From: a virus
Lineage: Duplodnaviria > Caudoviricetes
IMG/VR virus record: IMGVR_UViG_2663763509_000001
Coordinates: 5,533-69,532 of that record
Length of the DNA stretch: 64,000 nt
Reading direction: 5' to 3' (one strand)
Shown here piece by piece: positions 32,015-54,600 of this stretch. The notes under the pieces were generated by a model. That model ran no database searches, was not told the origin of the DNA, and saw only the letters and a program-made list of their open reading frames with translations. The position numbers and the translations under genes are program-made. Numbering within the stretch: position 1 is the first letter of the stretch; each line of letters starts with the position of its first letter.

Positions 32015-32609
32015 ATGGATTTGACACAATTTTACCATATTTTGGATAAGTTACAAACATCAACTATTCAATCTTACATTATTAATCTAGGTAGGGAGTA
32101 CTCTAGATTATTAGATGAAGATCTAAATATGAAACAAGTAATTGAAAAAGGTTCTGAGATATTAAATAAACTATTCATTAAAAGATTAGTTGTAAAAGAA
32201 AATACATCAGATGGTAAAGTATCTAAGATAATGATTACACCTAAATTAGATATCACATTAAGTGATAGAATAAAATTCTATCCTATAGAAACTGAAGTAC
32301 CTGAGTATAATAAACAATCTTACACACTAAATGATAAAAGATATGGATTAATACTTCATAATCAATTCGGTATATCTAAAGTATCTACTAAGTGCTTAGA
32401 TACTATTAAGAAATTATCTAGTATTCCTATTCAAATAGATAGTTCATTAAGTGATTGGACTAGGATACCTAAGAATATAGAAGCTTTAGAACAAGAAAAC
32501 TTCAAGAAAGAATCAGATTTATTTAGAAATACACAAAAAGAATACCATAATAAAATAGTGTATTTTCATTATAGATTTGATAATAGAGGTAGAATGTATA
32601 ATAATGGGT
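32015..32609 (+). CDS. T7-like / N4 RNAPII RNA polymerase, exon 1
   Basis: YFHYRFDNRGRMY motif; splices to give ...NNGY NLNPQGD. Confidence 0.88.
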
Positions 32610-33676
32610 TAAATTAGCCCCTATAATGAGTGATCATTATAGCAAACTCCATTAATTCAGGGGAAATCTTAGCAAGTAAAGTTGAAGATAATCCTGATCC
32701 AAGCATTATTTATGTTATAATAATGAAGGAGCAACGACTATCGAAAGCATAGTTAAAGTAGTGATACTTTAATGAAGAAGCGAGTAGAGTACACTCAAGT
32801 GAGTGGAAAAATGGAGCATCTAATTATCTTAAATAGATATTTTAGATGATGATATAGTCTAGTCTGTATAGAAATATACAGCTGAAATATGTGTTATTAA
32901 TAAAAAGGAATAGAATGTTTCATTATACATATTTAATTGAATATACTACAGGTAAGAAATATATGGGAGTAAGATCTAGTAAAGTTCCACCTGAAGAGGA
33001 TACTAAATATGTAGGAAGTTCTTTAATCACACCTAACGATAAAATACTTAGAAAAATCATATTACAGCAGTTTGAAACAAGACAAGAAGCGTTACAATCA
33101 GAAATAGAATACCATAAAAAATATGATGTAGCTGTAAATACTGATTATTATAATAGAGCAAGACAAACTTCTACAGGTTTTGATGTTACAGGAACTAAAT
33201 TTACTAAAGAACATAGAGAAAAAATTGGTAAAAGTAATTTAGGTAAGATAATATCTGAAGAAACTAGAAGAAAATTATCAATTGCTCACAAAGGAAAAAG
33301 ATTAGGTTGGAAACATTCTGAAGAAACAAGAAATAAAATATCTAAAGCTAATAAAGGTACTCCACCTTATAGTAAAGGGCTTCATTTTAGTGAAGACTAT
33401 ATTAGAGAAAAGTATGAAAGTAGAACTAAATTCCCAAATACAAAATTCAAATGGATAAATACAAGAATAAATAAAATAGTATATATGTCTTGTAGGGAAT
33501 TAGGTTATAAAGTTAGGGATAATAAAGGTAAACCTACTACTAAGTACTTTACTGCTATTGTACAGTCATATAATACTAAGTACAATAGAGTTTCATATTT
33601 AGGTTGGAGATTACATAAAGAAGATAAATAACACATAAATCGGGATAGGAGTAACGAACCTATCTGAATATAAACG
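32610..33676 (+). mobile_element. Group I intron (IA2-like) 1 in RNAP gene
   Basis: P1 GGGU/GCCC; core GACTATC...AGTAGAGTA...ATATAGTCT; terminal G; splicing restores GYNLNPQG. Confidence 0.9.
32915..33631 (+). CDS. Intron-encoded GIY-YIG homing endonuclease with NUMOD3 repeats
   Basis: HYTYLI...KYMGVR...YVGSS...YYN; SEETRRKLS and HSEETRNKIS repeats. Confidence 0.88.
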   Translation: MFHYTYLIEYTTGKKYMGVRSSKVPPEEDTKYVGSSLITPNDKILRKIILQQFETRQEALQSEIEYHKKYDVAVNTDYYNRARQTSTGFDVTGTKFTKEHREKIGKSNLGKIISEETRRKLSIAHKGKRLGWKHSEETRNKISKANKGTPPYSKGLHFSEDYIREKYESRTKFPNTKFKWINTRINKIVYMSCRELGYKVRDNKGKPTTKYFTAIVQSYNTKYNRVSYLGWRLHKEDK

Positions 33677-34494
33677 ATAACCTAAATCCACAAGGTGATG
33701 AATATTCTAAAGCAGCAATTACACTTGCTAATAAAGAAATCATCACAGATGAAGGTTCTAAGTATTTAATCTATGATATAGCAAATAACTATGGATTAGA
33801 TAAACTTACTAGAGAAAGAAAATTAGCTTGGTTTGAAGACAATAAAGAAATGATTATTGAAACAGGACATAAAAGTCTCTTCAAAGAAGAAGCTGATAAA
33901 CCATTATTATTCCAAAAAGGATGTAAAGCTTACTTAGATTACTTAGAAGGTAAGGAATCAGGATATATTTGTCAAATGGATGCTACTGCTTCATTTGCAC
34001 AGATTATGGCTGTATTATCTAAGGATAAGAATTTAGCCATAATAACTAATCTAACAGATGCTCCTAATCGTTATGACTTCTACTCAGAAGTTATTAAAGA
34101 GTTCTTATTAGTTTCTAAATCTAATGTTGATTTAAAGACAGCTAGAAATTACCTTAAAAAAGCCTTAATGGTTTACTTCTATAATGGAGAAAAAGAATTT
34201 AACAATGTAATTACTAAACCTGAAAATAGAAAACTATTTAAGGAAATATTACAATCTGTTGCAAAAGGAGCATATGAAATAAGAGAAACTATAAACAATG
34301 TTTACTTAGAATTAAGTGATAGAGCTTTGTTTAATTATATACTTCCTGATAACTTTCAAGTATCACTACCACAAATTGATACAGAAAGAGTTAAAGTAAG
34401 CTCTCCATTCTATAATGTTATAGTTCAATATGATGTGAATAGACCTAATGTAGCAAATAATAAAAGATTCTTAGCTCCATCATTTATACACAGT
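33677..34494 (+). CDS. RNA polymerase, exon 2
   Basis: NPQGDEYSKA, DIANNYGLDK, motif A MDATAS, motif B RNYLKKALMVYFYNG, LAPSFIHS. Confidence 0.9.
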
Positions 34495-35523
34495 GAACTT
34501 CTACGCTGTGTTTAAACTCCGTTAATTGCAGGAAGGCTAAGTCGTAAGATATGCTAATCTGCAGCCAAGTTAAATCGGGTTCAGAGACTATCGAAAGGGT
34601 AATTAGATTAGTGATAATCTAATGAGTAACCGAGTAGAGTAGGTTAGACAAGTGTCAACCGAAATGCGGAGCATAGTAAATATCTCAAGTAGATATTTAA
34701 TATGAAGAAATAGTCCGATACTCTTGCGAAAGTAAGAGATTTGTTGTATAATATGTGTCAATACAATGAATTTTTATAAAGGAATAAAATGAATAAACAT
34801 ATCATTGATTTGACAAATAAAAAGTTTGGCTCTTTAAGAGCTATAGAATATGTTTACTCTAAAAATAGAATGGCTTTTTGGAAATATGAGTGTGATTGTG
34901 GTAATATAATTATAAAAAGATCAAACACAATAACATATCAAACTAAAAAGTATATGAAGGTAAAACCTCAATTTCCATCTTGTGGTTGTAAAGAACTTGA
35001 ACAAAAAACTAAACACGGATACAGAAAACTAAAAGATACTCATCCATTATATAAAGTGTATAATAGTATGATGAATAGATGTTATAACAGTAATCTAAGT
35101 GAATATAAACATTATGGAGCATTAGGTGTTACTGTTTGCAATGAATGGAAAAATAATCCTAAAGCATTTATTGAATGGGGATTAAAAAATGGATATAAAA
35201 AAGGACTTAGTATAGATAAAGATATCTTATGCGAGAAAAAAAGAATCTATCCTAAAGTTTATAGTCCTGAAACTTGCCAATTTATATCTAAATTCGATAA
35301 TAATTCATATTCAAGTTCAAGAAAAGAAATAAACACACACAAGAATGTTAAATTAACAATAGAGCAAGCTAATAATTTATACCATAAATACAAAATAGAT
35401 AAAATATCAGGACCTAAACTATCTAAAATGTTTGGTATAGGTACTTCGTCTGTTTATAAAATAATACATAAAAAAGACAAAATTATACAACAAAGTTCAG
35501 AGTAACATCTGAATTAACAATTG
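34495..35523 (+). mobile_element. Group I intron 2 in RNAP gene (motif C)
   Basis: P1 CACAGU/GCUGUG; core CAGAGACTATC...AATAGTCC; splicing restores FIHS|IDAY. Confidence 0.9.
34789..35505 (+). CDS. Intron-encoded HNH-type homing endonuclease
   Basis: ECDCGN, SCGC, YNSMMNRCYN, VTVCNEW, LSIDKD, YSPETCQF; C-terminal HTH. Confidence 0.85.
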   Translation: MNKHIIDLTNKKFGSLRAIEYVYSKNRMAFWKYECDCGNIIIKRSNTITYQTKKYMKVKPQFPSCGCKELEQKTKHGYRKLKDTHPLYKVYNSMMNRCYNSNLSEYKHYGALGVTVCNEWKNNPKAFIEWGLKNGYKKGLSIDKDILCEKKRIYPKVYSPETCQFISKFDNNSYSSSRKEINTHKNVKLTIEQANNLYHKYKIDKISGPKLSKMFGIGTSSVYKIIHKKDKIIQQSSE

Positions 35524-35778
35524 ATAGATGCTTATATAGCTAGAGAAATGATTAGAAGAGTAGATTATGATATGTTAGTGAATCACGATTCATTTATGTC
35601 ACATCCTAACAATTGTAAAAAATCTTTAGAACACTATAAAGATATATTAAATCAAATCAATTATTCTAATCTATTCGATAATTTACTATCTCAAATGTAT
35701 GGACAAAAGATTGAGTCTAAATTCACTAATAGAGAACCATTAAATCTAATCCATCGTTCAACTTACGCATTATGTTAG
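35524..35778 (+). CDS. RNA polymerase, exon 3
   Basis: IDAYIAREM...NHDSFMSHPN...STYALC. Confidence 0.9.
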   Translation: MDAYIAREMIRRVDYDMLVNHDSFMSHPNNCKKSLEHYKDILNQINYSNLFDNLLSQMYGQKIESKFTNREPLNLIHRSTYALC

Positions 35779-35832
35779 ATACTATGGATACTTTTCGTAT
35801 CGATACAAAAATTATTTTATAAAGGAGTTAAA

Positions 35833-35985
35833 ATGACAGAAAAAGAAAGATTAGAGAGCTTAATTCAAAAAGCTAATGAAAGATTAAAAAGTATCTCTGA
35901 TCCAACAACTGAACTAGAAAATGAATTTGCTCATATTGAAAATGCTGATATGACTCAAAAAGACAAATCAGGTTCAGGTAAGTAA
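35833..35985 (+). CDS. 50-aa candidate protein modifier / precursor peptide
   Basis: AAAGGAG SD; MTEKERLESL...TQKDKSGSGK*; first gene of the E1-E2-JAB cluster; below ORF-track cutoff. Confidence 0.65.
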   Translation: MTEKERLESLIQKANERLKSISDPTTELENEFAHIENADMTQKDKSGSGK

Positions 35986-35988
35986 TTA

Positions 35989-36016
35989 AAGGGGTTTATA
36001 TCCCCTTATTTTTTTT
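35989..36016 (+). terminator. Intrinsic terminator after small tag gene
   Basis: AAGGGG-tttatat-CCCCTT-ATTTTTTTT. Confidence 0.65.
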
Positions 36017-36028
36017 AAAGGATATAAA

Positions 36029-37588
36029 ATGACAAGAAACAAATATTTTACTAATTTATCACATTTCATAATCTATACTAGTCTAAAAGACATCAATGAA
36101 ATCTATCCAAATTTCTCATTAAATCAATGTAAATCATTCTTATCAATGTTACTCGTAATTAAAAACTTAAATCCAATAGTAATCCAATACTCAAAAACCG
36201 AACACAATAAAGAAATTGAATATATAAAAATTATACTCACAATAGAACAAGGAATATATCTAAAGGAAATGTTTGATGATATTATATTATCTAGCAATCA
36301 TTCATTAGTTTTCTCAAAAGATCAGTTCTACAAACTTTTTAAAGACGTAGAAGACTTAGAAAAATTAGATATATCAGGTTATACAACAACCTATACTGAT
36401 TACTTTAATAAATTTGATGGTGATACTAACTATTTAAATAATAATTTTTCTTTATCTAATATACAAAGTAATTTATCAAGATCATATGGTAAATTTAGAC
36501 ATAATTTACTACAAAGATTAGTAAGAAGATACAATTTAAAAGTAGAAAAAAAAGTTTTAAATACTAATTGTGAAGAAGATTTTCTAAATAGTATTTTATT
36601 AGGTGATAAGTCTTACTTAAGAAATATACACGATGATTATACATTAATAAGAACAAAAAACAATGTATTAAACGGTAGTAATATTATGTTCATAAATCCT
36701 AATACTGCTACTTTACTTAATAAAGAAGTAGTAGGTGTAGATACTCTATTAAAACTGTTTAATATTGATGAGAAAAGTTTATATAGACATATGTATATGT
36801 TATCTAATAAACAACTAATAAATGTTTTATTAGTAGGTTTAGGAGGTACTATGTCTAACTTTGTTTATTTTGCAAATGAATTAGTTAAGTATTTTAAATT
36901 AGAACCTATCTTTGGTACTATGTATGTAATTGAAGATGATGATTTAGATGTTACTAATTTACCTAGAATACCATTAAATTATGTATCTAACAGAGATACT
37001 AAAGTAATTAGAACTATTTCTAAATTAAATTTGTTGAGTGGTGTAAATAACTTATCTAATGCTACTATACCTATATACGGAAAGTTAGCTACTGTACATA
37101 CTATACAAGGACTCGGTATAGTTAAAAAACCTTTAAGTTTCTATAAGAACGAAAATATTAAAAACTATAGTAGAGTAATAGGTATAAATTATGTTAAAGA
37201 CATTAAGAAAGAGTATTATACAGCCTTTCCTGATAATTGGGTAAAAAAATTCGGTATAAACACAATAATAGGATCTCCTTCCTTAGATGTAAGAGATGAA
37301 TTATCTAAATTAGGTGTTAATTACTTATGCCCATTACATACAGATAATAGTATTGTAATTTATAGAAATATAGACTTAAGTAATATATCATTAAATGCTG
37401 AAAGTTATGGTTCAATTGATTTAAATGTATTCTTATTAAATATGTTTAAAATGACAGTAGAGTTAATAATGAATATTAAACCTAAATATGAATCTTTAGC
37501 TGAAGAAAAAATACTAGATTACTCTGTTTTAGAGGATGAAGAAATAAAATCTAATAGTAAATTAGATAAACAATTTGTTATTTTTTAG
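36029..37588 (+). CDS. ThiF/E1-like adenylation domain protein
   Basis: NVLLVGLGGTMS nucleotide-binding loop; VIEDDDLDVTNLPR...SK motif. Confidence 0.75.
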   Translation: MTRNKYFTNLSHFIIYTSLKDINEIYPNFSLNQCKSFLSMLLVIKNLNPIVIQYSKTEHNKEIEYIKIILTIEQGIYLKEMFDDIILSSNHSLVFSKDQFYKLFKDVEDLEKLDISGYTTTYTDYFNKFDGDTNYLNNNFSLSNIQSNLSRSYGKFRHNLLQRLVRRYNLKVEKKVLNTNCEEDFLNSILLGDKSYLRNIHDDYTLIRTKNNVLNGSNIMFINPNTATLLNKEVVGVDTLLKLFNIDEKSLYRHMYMLSNKQLINVLLVGLGGTMSNFVYFANELVKYFKLEPIFGTMYVIEDDDLDVTNLPRIPLNYVSNRDTKVIRTISKLNLLSGVNNLSNATIPIYGKLATVHTIQGLGIVKKPLSFYKNENIKNYSRVIGINYVKDIKKEYYTAFPDNWVKKFGINTIIGSPSLDVRDELSKLGVNYLCPLHTDNSIVIYRNIDLSNISLNAESYGSIDLNVFLLNMFKMTVELIMNIKPKYESLAEEKILDYSVLEDEEIKSNSKLDKQFVIF

Positions 37589-37596
37589 GAGTAAAA

Positions 37597-38751
37597 ATGA
37601 ATAAAAGTTATTTCTCTTTTAAGAATATATATGAAGAAGTATTAATGAAAGAACGTTTGTTAGGAATGAAGCTATCTGTAGAAGCTAATATAGCTGAAAC
37701 ATTAGAAAATTCCTCATTAGATTTTACCCACTTAACTAACAATGATGTCTTATTTAATAAGTTAATAAAAATAGACAATATGGAACTTATAAAAGAATCT
37801 AATGAATCAGACTATGATGATTATGGTTTAATTAGAACTAATGAATTAAAAAATTTAATAGAAAGTAGTGATGTAAAGAAAGTAACATTTAAACTACCTT
37901 TAAAAGTTTATTCTTTATTAGATTATATATTACCGTTATTAGAATCAGAAGCAGTATATGGAGTGATAGCAATTGATAATTTTGGAAATAGTATGAATAT
38001 ATCACACCCTTGTAGAATTATAGAAATTATTGCTAATGAAAAAGCTAATAAAGATCAATTATTCACTAGTTTATATGTATTTAGTATGCCTGAGAATATA
38101 CCAAATTATCTTAATGAAAAAACTAAAGAAGAAGATGCTATAAATATAATTAATTTAATATATAACTATAAAGAAAGTATTTTAAAAAAAGAAGAATATG
38201 ACACTTCATATGCTAATGATAAAATAATAGTTTATGATCCTGAATATATAAGCAATAATATTGATACAGGATTATACTCGAGAACAAACTTTATGGATAT
38301 AAACATACCAAAGTATAATAACAATTTATTCTTAAACCAGATTTGTATTCGTAGAAGTAAATCTACAAGCAGTAGAAATAAAGTTAATTATTTTTTCAAT
38401 TATATAGATATATTTGTAAAAAACCTATACTTACCTTATTATGGATTACTGCTTCATAGAATTAAACCAAATGAGTTAACTGAATCCTTAAATATTAAAG
38501 GTATCTCTATATCAGGAAATACTAATTTAATAGATGATGGAAAAATTTTACTAGCAGGTAGTACTTGCACAGGAGATTATAAAACTACATCATTAGAAGG
38601 ATTGTTAAGTTTAAGAAAAATGAATCTAAATAGTATGTATAACGGTTCAGATCATAATGGAGTTAAATCTAATTATTTTGATATAGTTAGACTTTTTAAA
38701 CAAATCACAATAAAAGAAGTAAAGGACTTTTTAAATGGAAATAGTAAATAA
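37597..38751 (+). CDS. Putative prokaryotic E2-like protein
   Basis: C-terminal PYYG...SGN...GSTCTG...N motif resembles the E2 active-site Cys; lies between E1 and JAB. Confidence 0.5.
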   Translation: MNKSYFSFKNIYEEVLMKERLLGMKLSVEANIAETLENSSLDFTHLTNNDVLFNKLIKIDNMELIKESNESDYDDYGLIRTNELKNLIESSDVKKVTFKLPLKVYSLLDYILPLLESEAVYGVIAIDNFGNSMNISHPCRIIEIIANEKANKDQLFTSLYVFSMPENIPNYLNEKTKEEDAINIINLIYNYKESILKKEEYDTSYANDKIIVYDPEYISNNIDTGLYSRTNFMDINIPKYNNNLFLNQICIRRSKSTSSRNKVNYFFNYIDIFVKNLYLPYYGLLLHRIKPNELTESLNIKGISISGNTNLIDDGKILLAGSTCTGDYKTTSLEGLLSLRKMNLNSMYNGSDHNGVKSNYFDIVRLFKQITIKEVKDFLNGNSK

Positions 38752-39187
38752 ATCTATGGAAAGTACATTACCAGATAATAAGAAAGTAAATTCTTATTCT
38801 GATAGCAGTACTAATGTTATAGGGATAGCTAGTTATAAATTAGAAGATTTGATAGAAATAAAGAATACATTAAAAGATGTTAATTCTTATGAATATCAAG
38901 TACATTATACTAGTTTAAATAGAATAGTAGAATATCCTGACGGTTCTAAAACCATTATGGTATTTCCTTTAATTTATTTTAACTATAAACAAGAAGTTAG
39001 TTACGCTTCAATAGATGTAGAAATGACTGATGTTATAGAAGAATTAAAAAAGTATGAAGAACCTACTAAAATATTAGCATTAGATTTAAAAAGAAGATTC
39101 AAAGAACTAGATGATAAAGAGATTAATGAAAATGTTAAAGTTTCTTATACTATATGTATGTTAAATAATGTACATAAACACCCATAA
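38735..39187 (+). CDS. JAB/MPN metallopeptidase, N-terminal half
   Basis: YEYQVH (candidate catalytic Glu); YKQEVSYASID; ends exactly at NVHKHP*. Confidence 0.6.
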   Translation: MEIVNKSMESTLPDNKKVNSYSDSSTNVIGIASYKLEDLIEIKNTLKDVNSYEYQVHYTSLNRIVEYPDGSKTIMVFPLIYFNYKQEVSYASIDVEMTDVIEELKKYEEPTKILALDLKRRFKELDDKEINENVKVSYTICMLNNVHKHP

Positions 39188-39196
39188 GGAGTAATA

Positions 39197-40021
39197 ATGT
39201 TTTTTGATTTTAACAATAAATCTTTAAGTTTAACACCACAGTCTTTCTCCACTACAGACTTAAACACAGGAAGCCCATTAGGTGTGTGTTTTCCGTATGA
39301 AGTTAAACCACTACCTGAAGATACATTTGTAGTATCTAGTATTATAGATCACCATAACGGTAATAAAGTACTAAAAAATACAGAAACAAGGTATGTAGAA
39401 TATGTTAAAAATAAATATAATGAAGAATTAAATTACTATAGAATACCTACAATAGGAATAGCCTTAGATACTACTAAAACTCAAAATATGGTAGGGTTAT
39501 GTAAGGATTCATCTTATTATCAATCTAAGGATTTAGGAGAAGTTGATATTAATAGATTAAAACCTTTTAATGATATATACAAAGATTTTGAAACATATGT
39601 ATTTGTAGATGAATCCAAAGTAACTATTAAACAAAGCTATTACTATAATTATGATTATTACGGTAATAAATCCTTTTATGGAGGTACTACTAAGAGTACT
39701 AAAAAGAACAATCATTGGTACGATGTTTGGTATGGAACTTCAAATAAAAAAGAACAAGATAGAGAAAGAAGAGAGTATCTAATAGAATTAAGAGAATTAT
39801 TAGAAACTCAATTACTACCTTTAGATATAGATAGTATTAAAAATATCACAGAATCTAAAGATTTAGTAACTGATTTACATGAACTTATAAATGATGAGTA
39901 TGACGAATTTGGATGGTGTATTGATTATTATAAGATTACACACAATGATTTAAAAATCATTATGAAAGGTATATATGAACAAAAAAGAAAACAGTTATCT
40001 AATACTAGACATAGAAAGTGA
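39197..40021 (+). CDS. JAB/MPN metallopeptidase, C-terminal half plus Tyr-rich extension
   Basis: Own TAAGGAG SD; SFSTTD supplies the SxxD of the JAMM motif. Confidence 0.55.
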   Translation: MFFDFNNKSLSLTPQSFSTTDLNTGSPLGVCFPYEVKPLPEDTFVVSSIIDHHNGNKVLKNTETRYVEYVKNKYNEELNYYRIPTIGIALDTTKTQNMVGLCKDSSYYQSKDLGEVDINRLKPFNDIYKDFETYVFVDESKVTIKQSYYYNYDYYGNKSFYGGTTKSTKKNNHWYDVWYGTSNKKEQDRERREYLIELRELLETQLLPLDIDSIKNITESKDLVTDLHELINDEYDEFGWCIDYYKITHNDLKIIMKGIYEQKRKQLSNTRHRK

Positions 40022-41112
40022 CTCTTTAGATATTTATAATACTAATATATTCTGTATTTGTGCTTTAGATTATCAAACTGATGAAGTATTTGTATTTAAA
40101 AATACAGATAAAGATTTTATAGCAAATGCACTAGAACTGTGTAGTAAGTATGACTATATAGTAGCTCATAATGGAGTAAGATTTGACTTTTTAGTTTTAA
40201 AAAAGTATGGATTTAAACATAAAGTTAGAGATACTCTAATTGATTCTAAAATGGTTTTTCCTAAAACATTACTTCTTGAAAGAGATACTAAAAAGAATGA
40301 TGTTCCTAGTAAATTGCTAGGTTCATATTCTTTAAAAGCTTTTGGTATTAGATTAGGTAACTATAAACAACAATTTGATGATTTTACTAAATTAACTGAT
40401 GAAATGATTGAATATTGTATTCAAGATTGTAGAGTAACTAAAGATTTATTTACTAAAATTCAGGAATCTAAGGTTCTTCCTCCTTATGATGTATTATATA
40501 GTGAGTATATAGTTAGTTACTTATTGTATATGCAAGAATTATACGGATTTTATGTAGATATAAAATCCTTATTTAAACTTAAATTAAAACTATTAGAAGA
40601 AAGAAATAGTATTGATGGTAAACTACAAGAAATATACCCACCTAAATTAGTTAAGAATGGTGAGAATTTAAATCCTAAACTAATGAAAAGAAATGGTTTT
40701 CAAATATGTGGACCTTATTCTAAATTAAAGTTACAAGTGTTCAATCCAGGAAGTAGACAACAAATTGTAGATAGACTTAAAGATGTATGGACTCCAGAAG
40801 TTTTTACTGAGAAGTTTAATCCTGTTGTAGATGAGGACACTCTTAAAAATGTACCTAATAGCAAAGAATTAGTTAGATATTTAAAATTAAATAAAGACTT
40901 AGGACAACTAAGTGAAGGACCGTCTAGTATAATTAATTGTTATAATAAGGAAACAGAAAGAATACACGGTAAAGTAGATTCAACAGGTACTGTTACTTTT
41001 AGAATGACTCATAATAATCCGAATATGACTCAAATACCTAAAGATAGAAGTTTTAGAGAATGTTTTATATCTCCTAAAGGTAAAGTACTAATAGGAATAG
41101 ATGCAGATGCTT
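39975..41112 (+). CDS. polA: Family A DNA polymerase, exon 1 (3'-5' exonuclease + polymerase N-part)
   Basis: LDIES, AHNGVRFD, YCIQDC, FNPGSRQQI, GTVTFRMTHNNPNMTQIP, IGIDADA. Confidence 0.93.
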
Positions 41113-41216
41113 AGTCAACCCCTTGCATCATTCTTCAACTTTTTTACATATTTATTGAGTAATAAATTGTTTATTATACTATAATTTGATTACAAATTTA
41201 ATTATAGGGATGAATC

Positions 41217-41714
41217 ATGTTAGAAGATTTAATTATTAATTCAAAACGTAATATGTTAAGAATAATATACTACTCTCAAGTAAGATCCTCTAAGAGTAGA
41301 GGACACCCTGAGCCTAACTATACATTTGAAGAACTATCTAATCGTTTCTTAGATAATGAAGATTTTAATAGAGTATATAACAATTTCTTACGAAATGGTT
41401 GTAAGCCTAAGGAAAAACCTTCATTAGATAGAATAGATGACTTTAAACCTTATACATTAGATAATTTACAAGTTACAACAATAAGAGGAAACGAAGTAAG
41501 AGGACATAATGATAGAAGATTAGGATTGGGGACACAAGGAAGGTGCTGTAAAAAAGTTATTCAATATAACACTGATGGAGAAATAATTAGAATATTCAAT
41601 TCATCTAATGAAGCAGCTAGAGAGTTAGGGCTGTGGAGACAAAATATAAATAAAGTATGTAATGGTGAAAGAGATTCAACAGGGGGATTTAGATTCCAAT
41701 ATCTAAATTCTTGA
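41217..41714 (+). CDS. Intron-encoded HNH endonuclease with NUMOD1 domain
   Basis: PSLDRIDD..YTLDNLQ; KKVIQY...F.S..EAARELG...VC. Confidence 0.85.
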   Translation: MLEDLIINSKRNMLRIIYYSQVRSSKSRGHPEPNYTFEELSNRFLDNEDFNRVYNNFLRNGCKPKEKPSLDRIDDFKPYTLDNLQVTTIRGNEVRGHNDRRLGLGTQGRCCKKVIQYNTDGEIIRIFNSSNEAARELGLWRQNINKVCNGERDSTGGFRFQYLNS

Positions 41715-41788
41715 GCATATAAAACCCTTTGAATTCAAAGAAAACCCTGAAAATTTTAACAGGATAACTTTGAGCTAAGAATATTATA

Positions 41789-41953
41789 AGTAATAAAAAG
41801 ATAGCTCAATATGATTTAAACAGTAAATTAATTAGAGTATATCACTCTATGAATAATGTTGCAAGAGAACTTAATTTACAATATTCTAATATATGGAAAG
41901 TTTGTAATAATGAAAGAAAAACTTGTAGTAATTTTATTTTTAAATACTTATAA
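41789..41953 (+). pseudogene. Orphan NUMOD1 fragment (relic endonuclease) inside intron 3 core
   Basis: SNKKIAQYDLNSKLIRVYHSMNNVARELNLQYSNIWKVCNNERKTCSNFIFKYL*, no start; flanked by AATATTATAAGTA/TACTTATAATATT. Confidence 0.75.
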
Positions 41954-42139
41954 TATTAAAGTGCAGAGACTATCGAAAGACACAATAGTGAATCGAGTAG
42001 AGTACATTGTAAGTTATTGACAATGGAAGCGGAGGGAATTAGATATAAATCTAATTATGACATAGTCCGATCTCTATGGTAACATAGAGCAGTGATTTAG
42101 TCACGGGTATAGTGTAGCGAACTATACTGAACATAAATG

Positions 42140-42292
42140 TAGAATTAATGTTATTTGGTTACTACTTAGAAAAATTTGGAAATAAGGAGTACATTCATTC
42201 AGTAGCTTTAGGTTCAAAATCTGAAGGTAATGATGTACATACTAAAACACAGAAATTAGTAGGATTACCTACTAGAGATAAAGCCAAGACCT
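42140..42292 (+). CDS. polA: DNA polymerase, exon 2 (153 nt)
   Basis: LELMLFGYY...GNDVHT...PTRDKAKT; absent from ORF track. Confidence 0.9.
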
Positions 42293-43380
42293 TAAACTTA
42301 GGGCTATAGTATAGAAATATATTATAGAAACTTGTCTAATTCGGTAAAACTCCTGTATATTTCAGGACAATACCGAGCTAAGCTATTATTAAGATAAAAT
42401 AAGTAGAATTCCATAAACTAAATGAAAGGATTAATTTATGGAAATTACTAAATATTATTCAATACCATTTTATGGAAAAGGTTCTATTACTAATAGACAA
42501 AAACTAGTAGATAAAAGTAATAAGTATCCTAATGGTTATTTTAAAGATAAAAAATGTAGATTGTGTGATAAGGAATTTAAACCTTATTCACCTTCTCATC
42601 ATTATTGTTCTGATGAATGCACAGAACTAGCCAGAGCTGATGCATATTACTATAGAAATTATAAAATTTCTATATTTCAATATTATGATATTTATATGAA
42701 AAATAATGGTAAATGCTATATTTGTAATTCAGAAGGCTTTACTCTTAGCTGGAATAACCCAACAACTTCTCTAGCTTTAGATCACGATCATAAAACAGGA
42801 AAAGCTAGAGGAATGTTATGTCATAATTGTAATAGAGCATTAGGTTTATTTAATGATTCTTTAGATACTTTAAAAAAAGCAATAGACTACCTAAATACAG
42901 ATTTAGATATAGATGATAATGATAGATCTAATAGAGTATTTAGGAATAGAGGAAATAATAGTGCAAATAAATTATCTAAAGAAGATATTTTTAATATTTA
43001 CGATATGAAGTTTAATCAAAATCTTGTACCATCTGTTATAGCTGAAAAAGTAAATATATCAGCTAATATGGTCACAGGGATATTAAAAGGTAACCACCAT
43101 AAAAAATTACTTATTGAATGGAATAATCTTAATAATAGAAAGTGTAACGACTATCCAGAAATGGAGTACACTATAAGCGATTGATAGTGGAAATGGCAAG
43201 ATGCTAAACAGATAATGCTGTAGTAGTGATATAGTCTGATCTATATGGTAACATATAGCAGTTCGTAACTTTACATTTTAGAACTTCTATTCTATAATAA
43301 TTAAAGTCCAAAATATTTCTTTGTATTTTATGTAAAGTAAGAGAACGCATTTAGAGTAGCGATCTAAATGGAACATAATG
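42293..43380 (+). mobile_element. Group I intron 4 in DNA polymerase motif B
   Basis: Starts TAA after ACCU; core ACGACTATCC...ATATAGTCT; splicing restores RDKAKT|FSYASLYG. Confidence 0.88.
42438..43184 (+). CDS. Intron-encoded endonuclease VII-like (His-Me) homing endonuclease
   Basis: CYIC...LDHDHKTGKARGMLCHNCNRALGLF; N-terminal CxxC...CxxxC; C-terminal HTH. Confidence 0.88.
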   Translation: MEITKYYSIPFYGKGSITNRQKLVDKSNKYPNGYFKDKKCRLCDKEFKPYSPSHHYCSDECTELARADAYYYRNYKISIFQYYDIYMKNNGKCYICNSEGFTLSWNNPTTSLALDHDHKTGKARGMLCHNCNRALGLFNDSLDTLKKAIDYLNTDLDIDDNDRSNRVFRNRGNNSANKLSKEDIFNIYDMKFNQNLVPSVIAEKVNISANMVTGILKGNHHKKLLIEWNNLNNRKCNDYPEMEYTISD

Positions 43381-44057
43381 TCAGTTACGCTAGCCTATAT
43401 GGTTCAGGAGCATTTAAATTAGGTAGAGGTTTATATACTGAAGGTTGTGTAGATGATTATACGGAAGAAGAGTATAGTAAACATAAAAGATTAGTTGAAA
43501 GTAAAATTATAAATAATGATTTTATAAGGATAGATAAATCCACAGTATTAAAGTATGATCCTAAATTTATATTAATGTCTATTTATGGTGAAAGACTTAG
43601 AAGTAGATTTCTTAATGGTACAGAAGGTTTTATAGACTTGATGAATTATTTAACAGAACAATTTAATCAACAGAATCAATTTATAAAATCTTTAGATGAT
43701 AGATTTGTATATTGTAATTCAGCTCATAAATCTCTAAATGTACTTCTTCAATCTAGTGGTGCTATATTTATGAAATACTATCTTTTAAATGTATTCTATA
43801 GTCTAACTAAAGAAGGATTAAAACTAAATAGAGATTATGCAAATATAGCCAATATACATGATGCTTTAGTATTAGAAACATATCCTCAGTATAGAACTAT
43901 TATATGTGATACATTGGTTAAATCTTTTACAGAAGTAAGTGATAGATTTAATTTCTCATATCCTATAAAAGGATACCCTATTATACACAATAATCTGTAT
44001 GATATTTTTGTCGATGAGAAAGAAAAAAGAACTTACTTTAAATTTGATGATTATTGA
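43381..44057 (+). CDS. polA: DNA polymerase, exon 3
   Basis: YASLYGSG, HKSLNVLLQSSGAIFMK, motif C NIHD. Confidence 0.92.
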
Positions 44058-44067
44058 AAGGAATAAT

Positions 44068-44715
44068 ATGTTAGACATAAACAAACCTATATTATTAACT
44101 AATTTATTTATTGATTTTTTAGATTACAATTATAAAGAATTAAATTATAACAATAGTATTCATATTTCTAATCGTTCAAGACTGATAGATTCATTATATT
44201 CAGTTTATGATTCTAATTTAGATAAATATTATAATATATATTATATAGATAAATCTAAATTACATGTACCTATAGAATCACTTAATAAAATAAAAGATCG
44301 TATTATGAATCTAAAACCACAGGATAAAATAGCTATTGAATTTATGAAAGAATTACTTTCAGTTGAAGATCTTAAAACTGTAAATATTAAATTGAATATA
44401 TATTCAGATGAAAGGGCTAAAAAAAGATATCTCAATCTAATTAACTATGCATTAGATAAGTTAAATAAAATGAAAAATTCCAATGAACTTATAATAATAG
44501 AATCAAGTTATAAACATGATCTATGTGTAAAATTTGATCTTATGGTGTATACATCTACAAAGAAAATACATTCTAAAATACATAATTTAAATATAGGGTT
44601 ATCAGAAAAAGATAAAATATACACTTTTAATAAAAATACTCCTAAGTATCAAATAATTAACTATTTTAACAGTTTAGTACACTGTTTATTTGCTAATAAG
44701 GAAGGGATACAATGA
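44068..44715 (+). CDS. Hypothetical protein
   Basis: ATG 44068 after GAAAGGA SD (track starts at 43999). Confidence 0.65.
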   Translation: MLDINKPILLTNLFIDFLDYNYKELNYNNSIHISNRSRLIDSLYSVYDSNLDKYYNIYYIDKSKLHVPIESLNKIKDRIMNLKPQDKIAIEFMKELLSVEDLKTVNIKLNIYSDERAKKRYLNLINYALDKLNKMKNSNELIIIESSYKHDLCVKFDLMVYTSTKKIHSKIHNLNIGLSEKDKIYTFNKNTPKYQIINYFNSLVHCLFANKEGIQ

Positions 44716-51692: not shown

Positions 51693-54600
51693 TTAAAAAA
51701 TAAATCTATATCTGTTTAGTGTGAATATAGTAGCTATAGTTGAAGGTAATCCTCTAAAGACAAATGTTTCTAATAGAGCAGATAACCCTGACTTTATACC
51801 TAATATATTAGCTAAACCTATTAATGCTATAGAACCTACAGGATTCTTTTGAAATATTTTTGTAGCAGTTCTATGTACTCTTATATAGTATTTTAAGAAT
51901 GCTGCTAAACCTAAAGCATCAAAGTTTCTTAATATCTTTGATTTAATAGGAGAGTTATAATCAACAAATATTTCCTGAGCTTCTATAAAAGCATCTTCAT
52001 CATTATATCCTAATTTATCCCTATAATACTCATAAACTATCTGCCTAGGTAAGAAATCTGTATATCTTTGCCAGTTAGCCATAATCTGATATAAATTAGA
52101 TTTATTAGTTAACCATAATTCATTAATAGTTTTCTTAATAGTTTCATTTAAATCCTTAGAAATAATACCTTTTTGAACCATATTACCTAATTTAGGACTA
52201 GCTAATACTACTTCATTAATAAACTTATCTATAGTATTACTATTAGTTTCATCTGCGTCTTCAGCAATATTTGTCCATAAACCTTTAGAAGCTAATTTAT
52301 GTACTCTATTAGATCTAATTCTAGCATTAATAGTATTTAACTTAGATTCTAATTCTTTCATAGTTTTAATTTCTTCATCGTCTAGAGTTTGTTTATGTGT
52401 ATACAAAGATAACTCTTGTTCTAATTTAACTCTTTCAGTTTCATCACTTAAATATGTTGTCAATGAATCTGTTATTGCAGGTATAGATGCACTAATATCT
52501 TTAGCAGGAACACCTAATAAACTTAATGTAGCTAAGTTAGATGTAAAGTCTAAAGCTGTTAATCCAGGATTTCTAACTATAGTAGTATCCTTAGATTCTC
52601 TACTAGCTATTTTCATAACAGAATCAAACTTACTAATAAACTTAGTAAAAGATCCTTTATGTTTACTAGATATATTTAGTGTATCTATTATATCTTTAGC
52701 TAGATTATCTCTAAATCCAAATACACCTTCAATTACTTCTTTAGGTATCCATAACCTATCATATGTTTTATTATTTACATAAGAGTATCTTTCATATACT
52801 TTATCAAATAAATCTTTATCTCTAGCACTAAAATACTTTTGATAATCTCCTGAATTATTTTCAAAATCTATTAATTTGACAAATCCTCTTCTATTTAATT
52901 CTGCTTCATCTTTAGGATTATCTAAATCTAATCCTAAGTTTTTAATTCTATCAAGAGATCTAACATAATCATTAGCACTCATTAATGATTCAAATATATC
53001 TGTATTATTTATTTCATAGTTCATAGATTTAATAGTATCTTTACTCATTTCAGCATAAACTAAATCTATTTCTTTACCTGTATCTATAACATTATCTTTA
53101 AATGTTCTTGTAGGAAATATTCTATATGTATTTGAATTTCTACCTACTTGTACAAACTGTTCACTATTAGCTGAGTATTCTCCTATTAATAATTTATAAC
53201 TATTAGTATCACTAAATAATCTATTTAATTCATACTCTTTTCTTCTTTTAGCTTCTTTAATTATAGATTCATACTGGCTACTTCCATTCTCATATAAATC
53301 TATAAGATTAAATCCTCTTTGATAATAGTCGTCTTCAACTTTACCATAAGCTGAATATGTTTCATTCTTATTAAATAATCCATATTTCTTGAATATCATA
53401 ACTTTATTATTATGCTTAGATGGTACTTCTGTTTCTAATCCTAATTGATCTACTGTAACATAACCTAAATCATTTACAAGACTATTAAACATTTCAGATT
53501 TTTCCATACCATATTTTAATCTAAATAATTGATCTTCTAGAGAGAAATTAATACTTAACATTTCTACTTCATTATTATATCTATTAGCTATTCTGTTATC
53601 TAAATACTTAGCTGTATATGGATTATCTGCATCTAAATCTGAAGTAACACTAAATAATCTATTTTCCATTATAGACTTTTCTAACTCTTTTAACTTAGAT
53701 GTATCTAATCCTTTCTCTTCGTATTCTTTTATTCTTTTTTGAACATTACCTAGATCTTTATTAGCTTCATCATTATATGATATAGTTTTAAGATTTTTAT
53801 CTTCTAATACTCTATAATTGATTAGTAAGTCTTTTAATAGTTTAGTAGAGTTTTCTTTTAACTTACCAGTATTCTTATCTATAAAAGCCCATTTAATATT
53901 ATTTTTACTAAATTTTATATTAGCTATATCATAATGATATCTAGGATCATATATTTCACTTTGATAGATAGCTTCAGAAGTAATATATCTTTTAAACATT
54001 TTTATCATAGATTTATACTCATCAGATTTATAATCTAATCTAATCTTTTGATTAGTTTTCTCATTATATTTATCTATAACAGTAACTAACATATCTTCTA
54101 CATTTATGAATCCTAATGATGAATATTGTCCTGTTATTCTACTCATAGCTAAGTGTTTTAATCCATTATGTATTGCTTGATTTAATTCCTTGCTACCTTT
54201 ACCATTTTCCATAACTTTATATAGAAGATTTATTGCACCATTATCTTTATCATATAAGTAGTTAGATCTAAGATTCCATATCTTACTATTCTTATTAGCT
54301 ACTAACATATTTAATATTGTTTGTAATTGCTCTTCATCTATTTTATTATCTTTGTCATATATAAGGAAATCATGTAATTTAAATACATTAATTACAGAAC
54401 CTAAATTATGTTTGAATTTATCTGTAGGTTTTAATCTATGATTATAAAATAATGTATGTTTATTACCATTAACTACAAAAGATCTATCTTTATCTCTTAA
54501 ATTTTCCATTATATCAGGAATATACATTTCTAATAGATTATTTATACTATCTTTATGAACTTTCTCACTATTAGCAAGATGTCTTTGTAAAGTAGTTCTA

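What the first reader, a model, noticed from the sequence alone, without database searches (positions are those of the whole stretch)
35833..40021. Phage-encoded ubiquitin-like conjugation system: small tag + E1 + E2-like + JAB
Seen: five closely packed + strand genes between RNAPII and DNA pol. They are a 50-aa peptide ending KSGSGK, a protein with ThiF/E1 motifs (VGLGGTMS; D-D-x4-NLPR), a protein with GSTCTG near its C-terminus, and two ORFs that together give a JAMM motif (E...HKH...SxxD). Established: E1+E2+JAB neighbourhoods define prokaryotic ubiquitin-like systems such as CBASS Cap2/Cap3 and Bil, which are mostly known as host anti-phage defences. Inference: this lytic phage carries its own tagging and de-tagging pathway, in the slot where N4 has AAA/vWA and rIIA/B genes. 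It could mark host defence or replication proteins, or counter host Ubl-type immunity. The E2 call is the weakest link.
Basis: partly seen in the sequence, partly recalled or inferred. Interest (0 to 1): 0.93.

Follow-up and report, generated by a model that had tools for sequence, protein, structure and literature searches.

The report
Phage peptide-tagging cassette with split protease
This N4-like phage, seen in Campylobacter assemblies, carries a conserved and apparently undescribed gene set (a tiny glycine-tailed peptide, a ubiquitin-E1-type enzyme, a cysteine protein and a two-piece zinc protease) that looks like a ubiquitin-style tagging machine using an unfolded peptide instead of ubiquitin.

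Summary
Five packed + strand ORFs lie between a T7-type RNA polymerase fragment and DNA polymerase A.

Twenty of 22 related IMG/VR phage loci keep the same order:
- A peptide of 38-58 aa with Ser-Gly followed by 1-4 variable residues.
- A hairpin after the peptide gene.
- An E1-like gene.
- A protein with one invariant Cys.
- A JAMM-motif gene.

The E1 call is well supported: hhalign against ThiF/MoeB gives 92% probability, P 6e-7, and Foldseek returns only E1/ThiF chains.

The JAMM call rests on invariant E...HxHP...SxTD and a weak profile match, P 0.003. The gene is split right after HxHP here and in many relatives. That is a natural two-chain form, not an error.

The E2 call is not supported. 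The Cys protein has no recognisable fold.

Best reading (about 0.5): the protease trims the peptide to a terminal Gly, the E1 adenylates it, and the Cys protein carries or transfers it. Rivals are a sulphur carrier or a RiPP-like product.

I found no paper describing it. This scan has already reported the same cassette on other DNA.

The parts
35833..35985 (+). Gene for a 50-aa peptide. It has an N-terminal amphipathic helix-like segment, an acidic/polar middle and a C-terminus ...KDKSGSGK. It is the candidate modifier or substrate.
   Evidence: ORF with an AAAGGAG ribosome site. A matching small ORF lies upstream of the E1-like gene in 19 of 21 sources by regex, and in L007 by eye. The background is 1 of 922 other small ORFs. 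Alignment A7 has S46 and G47 nearly invariant.
35989..36007 (+). Terminator-like GC hairpin with a T8 run, between the peptide gene and the E1-like gene.
   Evidence: These are the only terminator-like sites in 35400-40200: 2 overlapping sites against 0.4 +/- 0.6 in shuffles. A GC-rich hairpin sits at the same place in 15 of 15 loci folded, judged by eye without a shuffle control.
36029..37588 (+). ThiF/E1-superfamily adenylating-enzyme homologue. The core is roughly residues 260-490. The N-terminal extension of about 260 aa is variable and of unknown function.
   Evidence: hhalign of A4 against 31 ThiF/MoeB/TcdA sequences gives Prob 92.1, P 6.1e-7 over 167 columns, with controls at P 0.064-0.69. 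All 6 Foldseek matches at E <= 0.001 are ThiF or UBA5 chains, on a poor model with pLDDT 45.9. Invariant residues are G270, G272, G273, N277, N310, R313, H437, E458, Y460 and G461.
37597..38751 (+). Conserved protein with one invariant cysteine (C324 in SVCTG; GSTCTG here). Its fold is unknown. It is the candidate thioester carrier or transferase.
   Evidence: It occupies the slot between the E1-like and JAMM-like genes in all 20 loci that have both. Alignment A3 of 19 sequences has invariant G122, N134, H137, P280, Y282, G283, N308, C324 and S346. No family or fold match was found.
38735..39187 (+). N-terminal half of a split JAMM-motif domain. It carries E53 and H147-x-H149-P150 as its last residues.
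   Evidence: Twenty-five of the 150 listed representative proteins are stand-alone N-halves that end at HxHP. Fused relatives run straight on as HxHPG...QSFSGTD.
39197..40021 (+). C-terminal half of the split JAMM-motif domain (S18-x-x-D21, then E63-x-R65), followed by a variable C-terminal region.
   Evidence: Sixteen of the 150 listed representatives are stand-alone C-halves that begin just after the break. hhalign aligns HxHP...SxTD to the Prok-JAB HSHP...PSxxD motif, P 0.0028.

Best explanation
The five ORFs form one conserved cassette of N4-like phages, sited in the early or replication gene block. It acts on its own small peptide.

Proposed pathway (only the gene content and motifs are shown; every chemical step is inferred):
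1. The peptide is made in excess over the enzymes, because a hairpin or terminator follows its gene.
2. The JAMM-type zinc peptidase removes the 1-4 variable residues after the conserved Ser-Gly and exposes a C-terminal glycine. Here the peptidase is assembled from two polypeptides. Their interface would carry H147/H149 from one chain and S18/D21 from the other.
3. The ThiF/E1-like enzyme adenylates that glycine with ATP. It has no conserved cysteine of its own.
4. The activated peptide passes to the invariant Cys of the third protein, which holds it as a thioester and delivers it to a target. The target is most likely a lysine of a phage or host protein.

This would be ubiquitin-style tagging with a short, probably unfolded peptide in place of a beta-grasp protein. 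The target and the benefit to the phage are unknown.
For: Conserved unit:
- All 22 IMG/VR loci found with the JAMM-like profile have the JAMM-like gene, and 20 of 22 have the E1-like gene 1-2.5 kb upstream on the same strand. L021 lacks it, and L023 has no upstream DNA.
- The order peptide, E1-like, Cys protein, JAMM-like is kept at only 19-32% identity.
- Four of 5 host records tested also share the N4-type primase.

Peptide:
- The C-terminus is Ser-Gly plus 1-4 non-conserved residues (K, MRR, VAA, VHPN, I, C, N, Q, S, AK, NR, Y, LL, TV). This pattern is typical of precursors that are trimmed to a terminal Gly.
- A hairpin follows the peptide gene in 15 of 15 loci folded, and a terminator-like site follows it here.

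E1:
- Profile-profile homology to ThiF/MoeB.
- Foldseek hits only to E1-family enzymes.
- The ATP-site residues are kept: GxGG, an acidic residue at the end of beta2, NLxR and K332.

Peptidase:
- Invariant E...HxHP-x(5-10)-SxTD.
- The hhalign match lies on exactly that motif.

Cys protein: a single invariant Cys in 19 of 19 sequences.

Natural occurrence:
- The split and all five genes are present in near-identical relatives in other runs. These include a 67,000-letter DNA contig with 75 differences in 4,401 letters, and a chicken-gut metagenome contig.
- They are also present in proteins 92-98% identical from other assemblies.
Against: - No step of the chemistry was tested.
- None of the five proteins reaches any Pfam, PHROG or PADLOC threshold. 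Only 1 of 24 E1-like sequences gives a weak ThiF hit (0.042), and only 1 of 30 JAMM-like sequences gives a weak Prok-JAB hit (0.064).
- The MPN fold was not modelled, and the hhalign match is short: 33 columns, Prob 10.9.
- The Asp that canonical E1/ThiF enzymes use for Mg2+ (the 'DN' position by the alignment) is Asp in only 13 of 24 family members and is Ser in this phage. The enzyme may work differently.
- The Cys protein shows no E2 fold or E2 profile similarity.
- By profile the E1-like core is closer to ThiF/MoeB (P 6e-7) than to the Cap2 E1 domain (P 0.01). This fits a sulphur-carrier reading as well.
- Coverage by contigs of an RNA library (X7, 35700-39524) does not show transcription.
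Confidence: 0.5

Rival explanations
1. Sulphur-carrier system. The trimmed peptide's C-terminal Gly is adenylated and converted to a thiocarboxylate, as with ThiS, MoaD, CysO or QbsE. The Cys protein would be the persulphide donor or sulphur transferase. The sulphur would go into a thio-modified nucleotide, cofactor or DNA/RNA base that the phage needs.
For: The E1-like core aligns best with ThiF/MoeB-type enzymes and has no conserved catalytic Cys. JAB trimming of a carrier's C-terminal tail before E1 activation is known for sulphur carriers; the QbsD/QbsE and Mec+/CysO examples are my recollection, while the JAB-ThiS/MoaD-E1 sulphur-assimilation neighbourhoods are described in passages of PMC1779556 read. 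The third protein has one invariant Cys.
Against: Known sulphur carriers are beta-grasp proteins ending in Gly-Gly. These peptides are 38-58 aa with low-complexity middles and end in Ser-Gly. None of the 10 genes downstream of the cassette that I scanned has a sulphur-metabolism, rhodanese or thiolase domain. They are DNA polymerase exonuclease, reverse transcriptase, PD-(D/E)XK, MBL and RlaP.
Confidence: 0.15
2. RiPP-like or peptidyl-nucleotide product. The peptide is a precursor whose C-terminus is adenylated or otherwise modified by the ThiF-like enzyme, as with MccB on MccA or PaaA on PaaP. The JAMM protein would be the maturation peptidase and the Cys protein a tailoring enzyme. The product would be a small effector (toxin, signal or inhibitor) rather than a protein tag.
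For: MccB, PaaA and AclA, which are peptide-modifying ThiF-family enzymes, are among the Foldseek matches. AclA is the only ThiF-type chain in the PDB profile search, at E 0.33. The arrangement of a small precursor gene, then a hairpin, then the enzymes is typical of such operons (the mcc parallel is recalled). The conserved N-terminal helix could be a leader.
Against: The C-terminal residues are not conserved and there is no terminal Asn as in MccA. The conserved part is Ser-Gly followed by a disposable tail, which fits a tag better than a core peptide. No transporter or immunity gene is seen next to the cassette in the 10 loci scanned.
Confidence: 0.2
3. The genes are neighbours without a common pathway. 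Alternatively, the peptide ORF is not translated, the E1-like protein is an inactive scaffold, and the split JAMM gene is a decaying pseudogene.
For: All family matches are below curated thresholds. The Mg-binding Asp position is variable. The JAMM gene is interrupted inside its motif.
Against: Order and strand are kept in 20 of 22 loci at 19-32% identity. The split recurs with its own stop-overlapping ribosome site in three lineages; one has the second half in another frame, and two carry an extra gene in between. Stand-alone halves make up 25 + 16 of 150 representative clusters. The peptide motif occurs in 1 of 922 background ORFs.
Confidence: 0.07

Closest known systems
Type I Bub (6E.1/DUF6527) operons: BubAB, BubCD, BubE (PMC11601596; abstract, outline and section 5 read)
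   Same: A JAB/JAMM peptidase works with an E1. According to that paper's section heading, the E1 lacks a catalytic cysteine and the peptidase cleaves the precursor to make the modifier. It is a compact prokaryotic cassette.
   Different: Bub has a beta-grasp Ubl fused to an E2, a JAB-E1 fusion, a DUF6527 serine protease and oxyester chemistry, and it is a bacterial system. Here the genes are separate, the JAMM protein is in two chains, the modifier candidate is a 38-58 aa peptide, the third protein has an invariant Cys and unknown fold, and the carrier is a lytic-type phage. No PADLOC model matched.
Type II CBASS Cap2 (E2-E1 fusion) with Cap3 (JAB) (PMC10097602; search listing and start of abstract only)
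   Same: E1-type activation of a C-terminus combined with a JAB protease that acts on the same C-terminus.
   Different: Cap2/Cap3 act on a CD-NTase, and Cap2 is an E2-E1 fusion. No CD-NTase is present here. hhalign of the Cys protein against 8 Prok-E2_B-bearing ORFs gave P 0.31, and the E1-like profile matched their E1 part only at P 0.01.
Bil systems (BilA Ubl, BilB E2, BilC JAB, BilD E1), as summarised in PMC11601596 section 5
   Same: The same four roles: modifier, E1, Cys carrier and JAB.
   Different: BilA is a beta-grasp Ubl, and BilD has tandem adenylation domains plus a catalytic Cys domain. Bil is a host defence that tags phage proteins. Here the phage carries the system, the E1-like protein has one adenylation-type domain and no invariant Cys, and the modifier candidate is not a Ubl.
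ThiF/MoeB with ThiS/MoaD-type sulphur carriers and their JAB partners (PMC1779556, passages read)
   Same: This is the best profile match of the E1-like core. The carrier ends in a C-terminal Gly, and a JAB gene sits in the neighbourhood.
   Different: Those carriers are beta-grasp proteins. No sulphur-metabolism genes lie nearby.
MccB/MccA and PaaA/PaaP (structures among the Foldseek hits; their biology is recalled)
   Same: A ThiF-family enzyme acts on a short, ribosomally made peptide encoded just upstream.
   Different: MccA needs a C-terminal Asn and is 7 aa long. Here the conserved feature is Ser-Gly plus a variable tail, with a JAMM-motif gene and a Cys protein in addition.
Pup (prokaryotic ubiquitin-like protein; recalled, not tested)
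   Same: A short, probably disordered peptide modifier whose C-terminus is processed before ligation.
   Different: Pup uses Dop/PafA (glutamine-synthetase-like enzymes), not an E1. There is no sequence relation.

Membership tests
ThiF/E1 superfamily (Pfam PF00899) | Rossmann-type GxGGxG nucleotide loop, an acidic residue at the end of beta2, and the SNLxR(Q) motif with a following Lys | tested here: met
   G270, G272, G273, N310 and R313 are invariant and K332 is nearly invariant in 24 sequences. E or D is present at the beta2 end in all 24.
ThiF/E1 superfamily (Pfam PF00899) | Detectable homology to bona fide members | tested here: met
   hhalign of A4 against 31 ThiF/MoeB/TcdA sequences: Prob 92.1, P 6.1e-7, 167 columns; controls gave P 0.064, 0.69 and 0.19. 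All 6 Foldseek hits at E <= 0.001 are ThiF or UBA5.
ThiF/E1 superfamily (Pfam PF00899) | Score above Pfam's gathering threshold | tested here: not met
   0 of 14 and then 1 of 24 members gave any ThiF hit; the best was E 0.042. PF00899 was not found in the whole phage record at E <= 1.
ThiF/E1 superfamily (Pfam PF00899) | Mg2+-binding Asp of the 'DN...R' motif | tested here: inconclusive
   At the aligned position, 13 of 24 sequences have Asp and the window has Ser (PSLDVR). The Arg is nearly invariant.
Canonical ubiquitin-type E1 (Uba1, BilD, Cap2) | Catalytic cysteine that forms the E1~modifier thioester | tested here: not met
   The 24-sequence alignment has no invariant or nearly invariant Cys. 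C434 of the window is not conserved.
JAB/JAMM (MPN+) metallopeptidase | E ... HxH ... SxxD zinc and catalytic motif | tested here: met
   E53, H147, H149, S172 and D175 are invariant in 30 sequences. Spacing in fused forms is HxHPG-x(4-8)-SFSxTD.
JAB/JAMM (MPN+) metallopeptidase | Homology to bona fide members or an MPN fold | tested here: inconclusive
   hhalign of 107 sequences against 25 Prok-JAB sequences: P 0.0028, Prob 10.9, 33 columns on the motif; controls gave P 0.3-0.76. One of 30 members hit Prok-JAB at 0.064. One Atlas cluster, 48% Prok-JAB, scored 0.88 at rank 11.
JAB/JAMM (MPN+) metallopeptidase | Motif carried on one polypeptide | tested here: not met
   In the window a TAA follows HKHP and a new ATG starts 9 nt later. 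The same break is present in 25 N-half and 16 C-half representatives.
UBC/E2 fold, including Prok-E2 families | UBC fold | tested here: inconclusive
   AF2 model pLDDT is 53.9 and under 50 around the Cys. Foldseek found nothing at E <= 0.001, with 9 E2 rows at E 3-6. VIA wide gave a best Z of 4.0 on other folds. E2 chains gave Z 2.1-2.2.
UBC/E2 fold, including Prok-E2 families | HPN motif about 8-10 residues before the catalytic Cys (motif recalled) | tested here: not met
   The invariant N308 lies 16 residues before C324 and there is no HPN. The invariant His (H137, in NPLHP) lies about 190 residues upstream.
UBC/E2 fold, including Prok-E2 families | Profile similarity to Prok-E2_B (PF14461) proteins | tested here: inconclusive
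   hhalign of A3 against 8 ORFs bearing PF14461 gave P 0.31. One of the 8 (L169) was probably the wrong ORF.
Ubiquitin-like beta-grasp modifier | Beta-grasp domain (about 65 aa or more) | tested here: not met
   The peptides are 38-58 aa. Only a short N-terminal segment and the C-terminal Ser-Gly are conserved, and the middle is low-complexity. The fold itself was not predicted.
Ubiquitin-like beta-grasp modifier | C-terminal Gly, often followed by a removable tail | tested here: met
   Ser-Gly followed by 1-4 variable residues in all 20 peptides found.
Known anti-phage systems with E1/E2/JAB (CBASS type II, Bil, Bub) | Match to the system's curated models or partner genes (CD-NTase, Ubl, DUF6527) | tested here: not met
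   PADLOC gave 0 families for the 4 proteins at E <= 1. No such partner appears among the ORFs of 33000-43000.
MccB-type peptide adenylation | Substrate peptide ending in Asn (recalled) | tested here: not met
   One of the 20 peptides ends in Asn (L009) and L004 ends ...HPN. The last residues vary freely.

The most novel reading that the evidence does not exclude
N4-like phages carry their own E1-driven protein-tagging pathway. Its modifier is a roughly 40-58 aa intrinsically disordered peptide rather than a beta-grasp protein. Its Cys carrier has a new fold, and its JAMM protease can be built from two chains that share one zinc site. Early in infection the phage would use it to mark host or phage proteins, for example to redirect transcription or replication or to blunt host ubiquitin-like immunity.
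Probability: 0.4. Interest if true: 0.9.

Novelty: new variant of a known kind. Interest (0 to 1): 0.8.

Why it matters
E1-dependent tagging in prokaryotes is so far known as host immunity (CBASS Cap2/Cap3, Bil, Bub), and always with a folded Ubl or an enzyme C-terminus as substrate.

A complete, conserved cassette on lytic-type phages would change that picture in three ways:
- It would put this chemistry on the virus side of the conflict.
- It would show that an E1 can serve a minimal unfolded tag.
- It would add two new protein types: the Cys protein and a two-chain JAMM enzyme.

This window adds a practical point. Near-identical copies sit in assemblies that their sources name Campylobacter coli, and in chicken-gut data. 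The system may therefore be reachable in a culturable host, unlike the metagenomic examples.

Because a Lys precedes Ser-Gly in most of the peptides, trypsin would leave a small SG or SGSG remnant on targets. Target discovery by mass spectrometry should therefore be straightforward.

Tried and rejected
Family searches:
- Direct searches of the five proteins found nothing above threshold in Pfam, PHROGs or PADLOC.
- Profile searches of PDB sequences found nothing useful. A1 gave 4 chance hits at E 0.27-0.75. A2 and A3 gave 0 hits. A4 gave a chance hit to biphenyl synthase and AclA ThiF-type chains at E 0.33.

GenBank phages: tblastn against 50,697 records found no match for the window's E1-like protein, Cys protein or joined JAMM protein, nor for the L006 E1-like and JAMM-like proteins. 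That shows absence only at tblastn sensitivity.

Collection scans with the E1-like profile A1:
- It found no relatives in viral contigs, metagenome contigs or genome contigs.
- The JAMM-like profile A2 then found 22 viral loci, and 20 of them do hold E1-like genes. The A1 failures were therefore pattern misses, not absence.

Cys protein:
- The third homologue search, with profile A3, returned only 5 proteins. The Cys-protein alignment therefore stayed at 19 sequences and its model stayed poor.
- The Atlas gave nothing for the Cys protein: scores at most 0.87 and the Atlas's own model at pLDDT 0.27.

JAMM protein: the Atlas gave only a weak Prok-JAB lead for a fused JAMM relative.

Simple read-through of the TAA was considered and rejected as the general explanation:
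- In L019 the second half is in another frame.
- In L009, L013, L015, L017 and L018 a 109-184 aa ORF without any Pfam match lies between the halves.
- The stop overlaps a ribosome site in three lineages.
- Read-through in this phage itself is not excluded.

I looked for a homing endonuclease as the cause of the split, but the inserted ORFs have no Pfam hit. L023 has two overlapping JAMM-like ORFs at a different break, next to a direct repeat. I did not analyse it.

Run X1 laid nothing, and the tool says this can be false. Contigs of the RNA-library run X7 stop at 39524, and I draw no conclusion from that.

Supplementary tables of the Bub and CBASS papers were closed. They may list phage-borne operons that I could not see.

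Full report
**What is there**

The window is an AT-rich (about 25% GC) N4-like phage genome. It has a 4,076-aa ORF on the minus strand. Its 740-aa primase matches Schitoviridae primases at 22-28% identity.

Five tightly packed + strand ORFs lie between the last piece of a T7-type RNA polymerase gene and the first piece of a family A DNA polymerase gene:
- a 50-aa ORF (35833-35985);
- a 519-aa ORF (36029-37588);
- a 384-aa ORF (37597-38751);
- a 150-aa ORF (38735-39187);
- a 274-aa ORF (39197-40021).

In phage N4 the same slot holds gp17-gp38, including an ATPase, rIIA and rIIB. None of the five proteins reaches any threshold in Pfam, PHROGs or PADLOC.

**The neighbourhood is conserved**

I read the last two ORFs through their single in-frame TAA with X at the stop. 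This joined protein found 169 representative clusters at E <= 0.001. A profile of 30 of them recovered 22 loci in IMG/VR.

An HMM scan of all ORFs of those loci gave these results:
- The JAMM-like gene is in 22 of 22 loci.
- A relative of the 519-aa protein lies 1-2.5 kb upstream on the same strand in 20 of 22. L021 lacks it. L023 has only 70 bases upstream.
- In all 20, one ORF of 308-559 aa fills the gap.

Several loci are near-duplicates (L017/L018, L008/L016, L009/L013/L015), so roughly 16 lineages are independent. Four of the 5 host records tested are complete 67-103 kb phage genomes that share the N4-type primase.

The genes after the cassette vary among the 10 loci scanned:
- DNA polymerase exonuclease in 2 of 10, as in the window;
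- reverse transcriptase in 3;
- PD-(D/E)XK nuclease in 2;
- a metallo-beta-lactamase in 1;
- RlaP in 1;
- no Pfam hit in 1.

The conserved unit is therefore the four roles only.

**The peptide**

A small ORF with a C-terminal motif lies within 1.2 kb upstream of the E1-like gene in 19 of 21 sources by a regular expression. L007 has one that the expression missed (it ends ...NSESGK), and L015 lacks the upstream DNA. Only 1 of 922 other small ORFs in the same DNA has the motif. The expression was written after seeing the peptides, so this contrast is inflated, but it remains very large.

The peptides are 38-58 aa and have three parts:
- a short hydrophobic, alanine-rich N-terminal segment;
- a polar low-complexity middle;
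- a C-terminus of Ser-Gly (Lys-Gly in L010) followed by 1-4 unconserved residues.

That is the signature of a precursor trimmed to a terminal glycine. It is too short and too simple for a beta-grasp fold.

A GC-rich hairpin follows the stop codon in all 15 loci I folded (judged by eye). In the window it is the only terminator-like site in 4.8 kb. This suggests that the peptide message is made in excess of the enzyme messages.

**The E1-like protein**

Thirteen relatives were found at first. With the IMG/VR copies, the 24-sequence alignment keeps GxGG, N277, NLxR, K332, H437 and ExYG.

The AlphaFold model is poor (pLDDT 45.9). Even so, all 6 Foldseek matches at E <= 0.001, and every other row listed, are E1/ThiF-family enzymes.

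I built a reference alignment of 31 ThiF/MoeB/TcdA sequences from genome loci. hhalign gave probability 92.1 and P 6.1e-7 over 167 columns, against 0.064-0.69 for three controls. The homology is therefore sound.

Two features depart from canonical E1s:
- No cysteine is conserved.
- The Asp aligned with the Mg2+ ligand is present in only 13 of 24 members, and is Ser here.

**The JAMM-like protein and its split**

In fused relatives the invariant residues read E...HxHPG-x(4-8)-SFSxTD...ExR. hhalign against 25 Prok-JAB sequences aligns exactly this motif, at P 0.0028 against controls of 0.3-0.76. I therefore call it a JAMM-motif protein, probably an MPN fold.

The break after HxHP is natural, for four reasons:
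- 25 of the 150 listed representatives are N-halves that end there, and 16 are C-halves that start just after.
- In the window, L002 and L019 the stop overlaps a ribosome-binding site. In L019 the second half is in another frame.
- In five loci an unrelated ORF sits between the halves.
- Relatives 97-98% identical keep the split.

The zinc site would then be shared between two chains.

**The Cys protein**

Nineteen sequences share G122, N134, H137, PYYG, N308, C324 and S346. The model has pLDDT 53.9 and is worst around the Cys. The fold searches gave the following:
- Foldseek finds nothing at E <= 0.001. Nine of the listed weak rows are E2 enzymes at E 3-6.
- VIA-align gives at most Z 4.0 to generic alpha/beta folds.
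- VIA-align gives Z 2.1-2.2 to E2s.
- hhalign against Cap2-type proteins gives P 0.31.

The E2 label is therefore not earned. An invariant, probably catalytic Cys is.

**Occurrence**

No relative was found in 50,697 GenBank phage records by tblastn. Close copies (92-96% identity) occur in assemblies whose sources name them Campylobacter coli. The cassette is also present in 20 public runs of 7 studies, among them chicken-gut metagenomes and one RNA library. The RNA library does not prove transcription.

**Comparison and novelty**

The cassette works most like the E1 plus JAB systems of bacterial immunity: Bub, CBASS type II and Bil. It meets the defining features of none of them. It has no Ubl, no CD-NTase, no E2 fold, no E1 cysteine and no model match.

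Five literature searches found no description of it. Papers outside the held library, and closed supplements, could not be checked.

Earlier agents of this scan reported what appears to be the same cassette on other phage DNA. Those reports are unchecked notes and not independent evidence. My own loci reproduce the pattern.

I rate it a new variant of a known kind. The best mechanism is peptide trimming, adenylation and Cys-mediated transfer, at about 0.5.

Noticed in passing
window 32015-35778 and 39975-44715: The RNA polymerase and DNA polymerase A genes are each broken into pieces by endonuclease-type ORFs. These are 32891-33631 (NUMOD3), 34789-35505 (no clear family), 41217-41714 (NUMOD1/I-HmuI-like) and 42438-43184 (Endonuclease VII family). 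I did not test whether these are introns or free-standing insertions.
   Followed up: partly
L008 5807-5882 (and the near-identical L016): A tRNA-Gln (anticodon TTG) gene sits between the peptide gene's hairpin and the E1-like gene.
   Followed up: partly
G405 (record of L013), C1:8289-10487: The N4-type primase match in this complete 67-kb phage genome has one in-frame TAG. This could be a split gene or stop-codon recoding in that phage.
   Followed up: no
L004 9108-9851, L012 9312-10061, L014 9235-10017: A reverse transcriptase gene of about 250 aa (RVT_1, E 1e-20) directly follows the JAMM-like gene in 3 of 10 loci scanned.
   Followed up: no
window 39130: Three runs each carry a different in-frame 3-nt insertion (TTT, TCC, TAC) at the same place in the JAMM N-half. 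This matches the 151-aa relative P0020.
   Followed up: no
window 51693-63923 (minus strand): A giant 4,076-aa ORF, presumably the N4-type virion RNA polymerase. I did not examine it.
   Followed up: no
L011 6288-7064: The metallo-beta-lactamase gene after the cassette has a sub-threshold match to the anti-Pycsar Apyc1 family (33.7 bits against a cut-off of 50).
   Followed up: no
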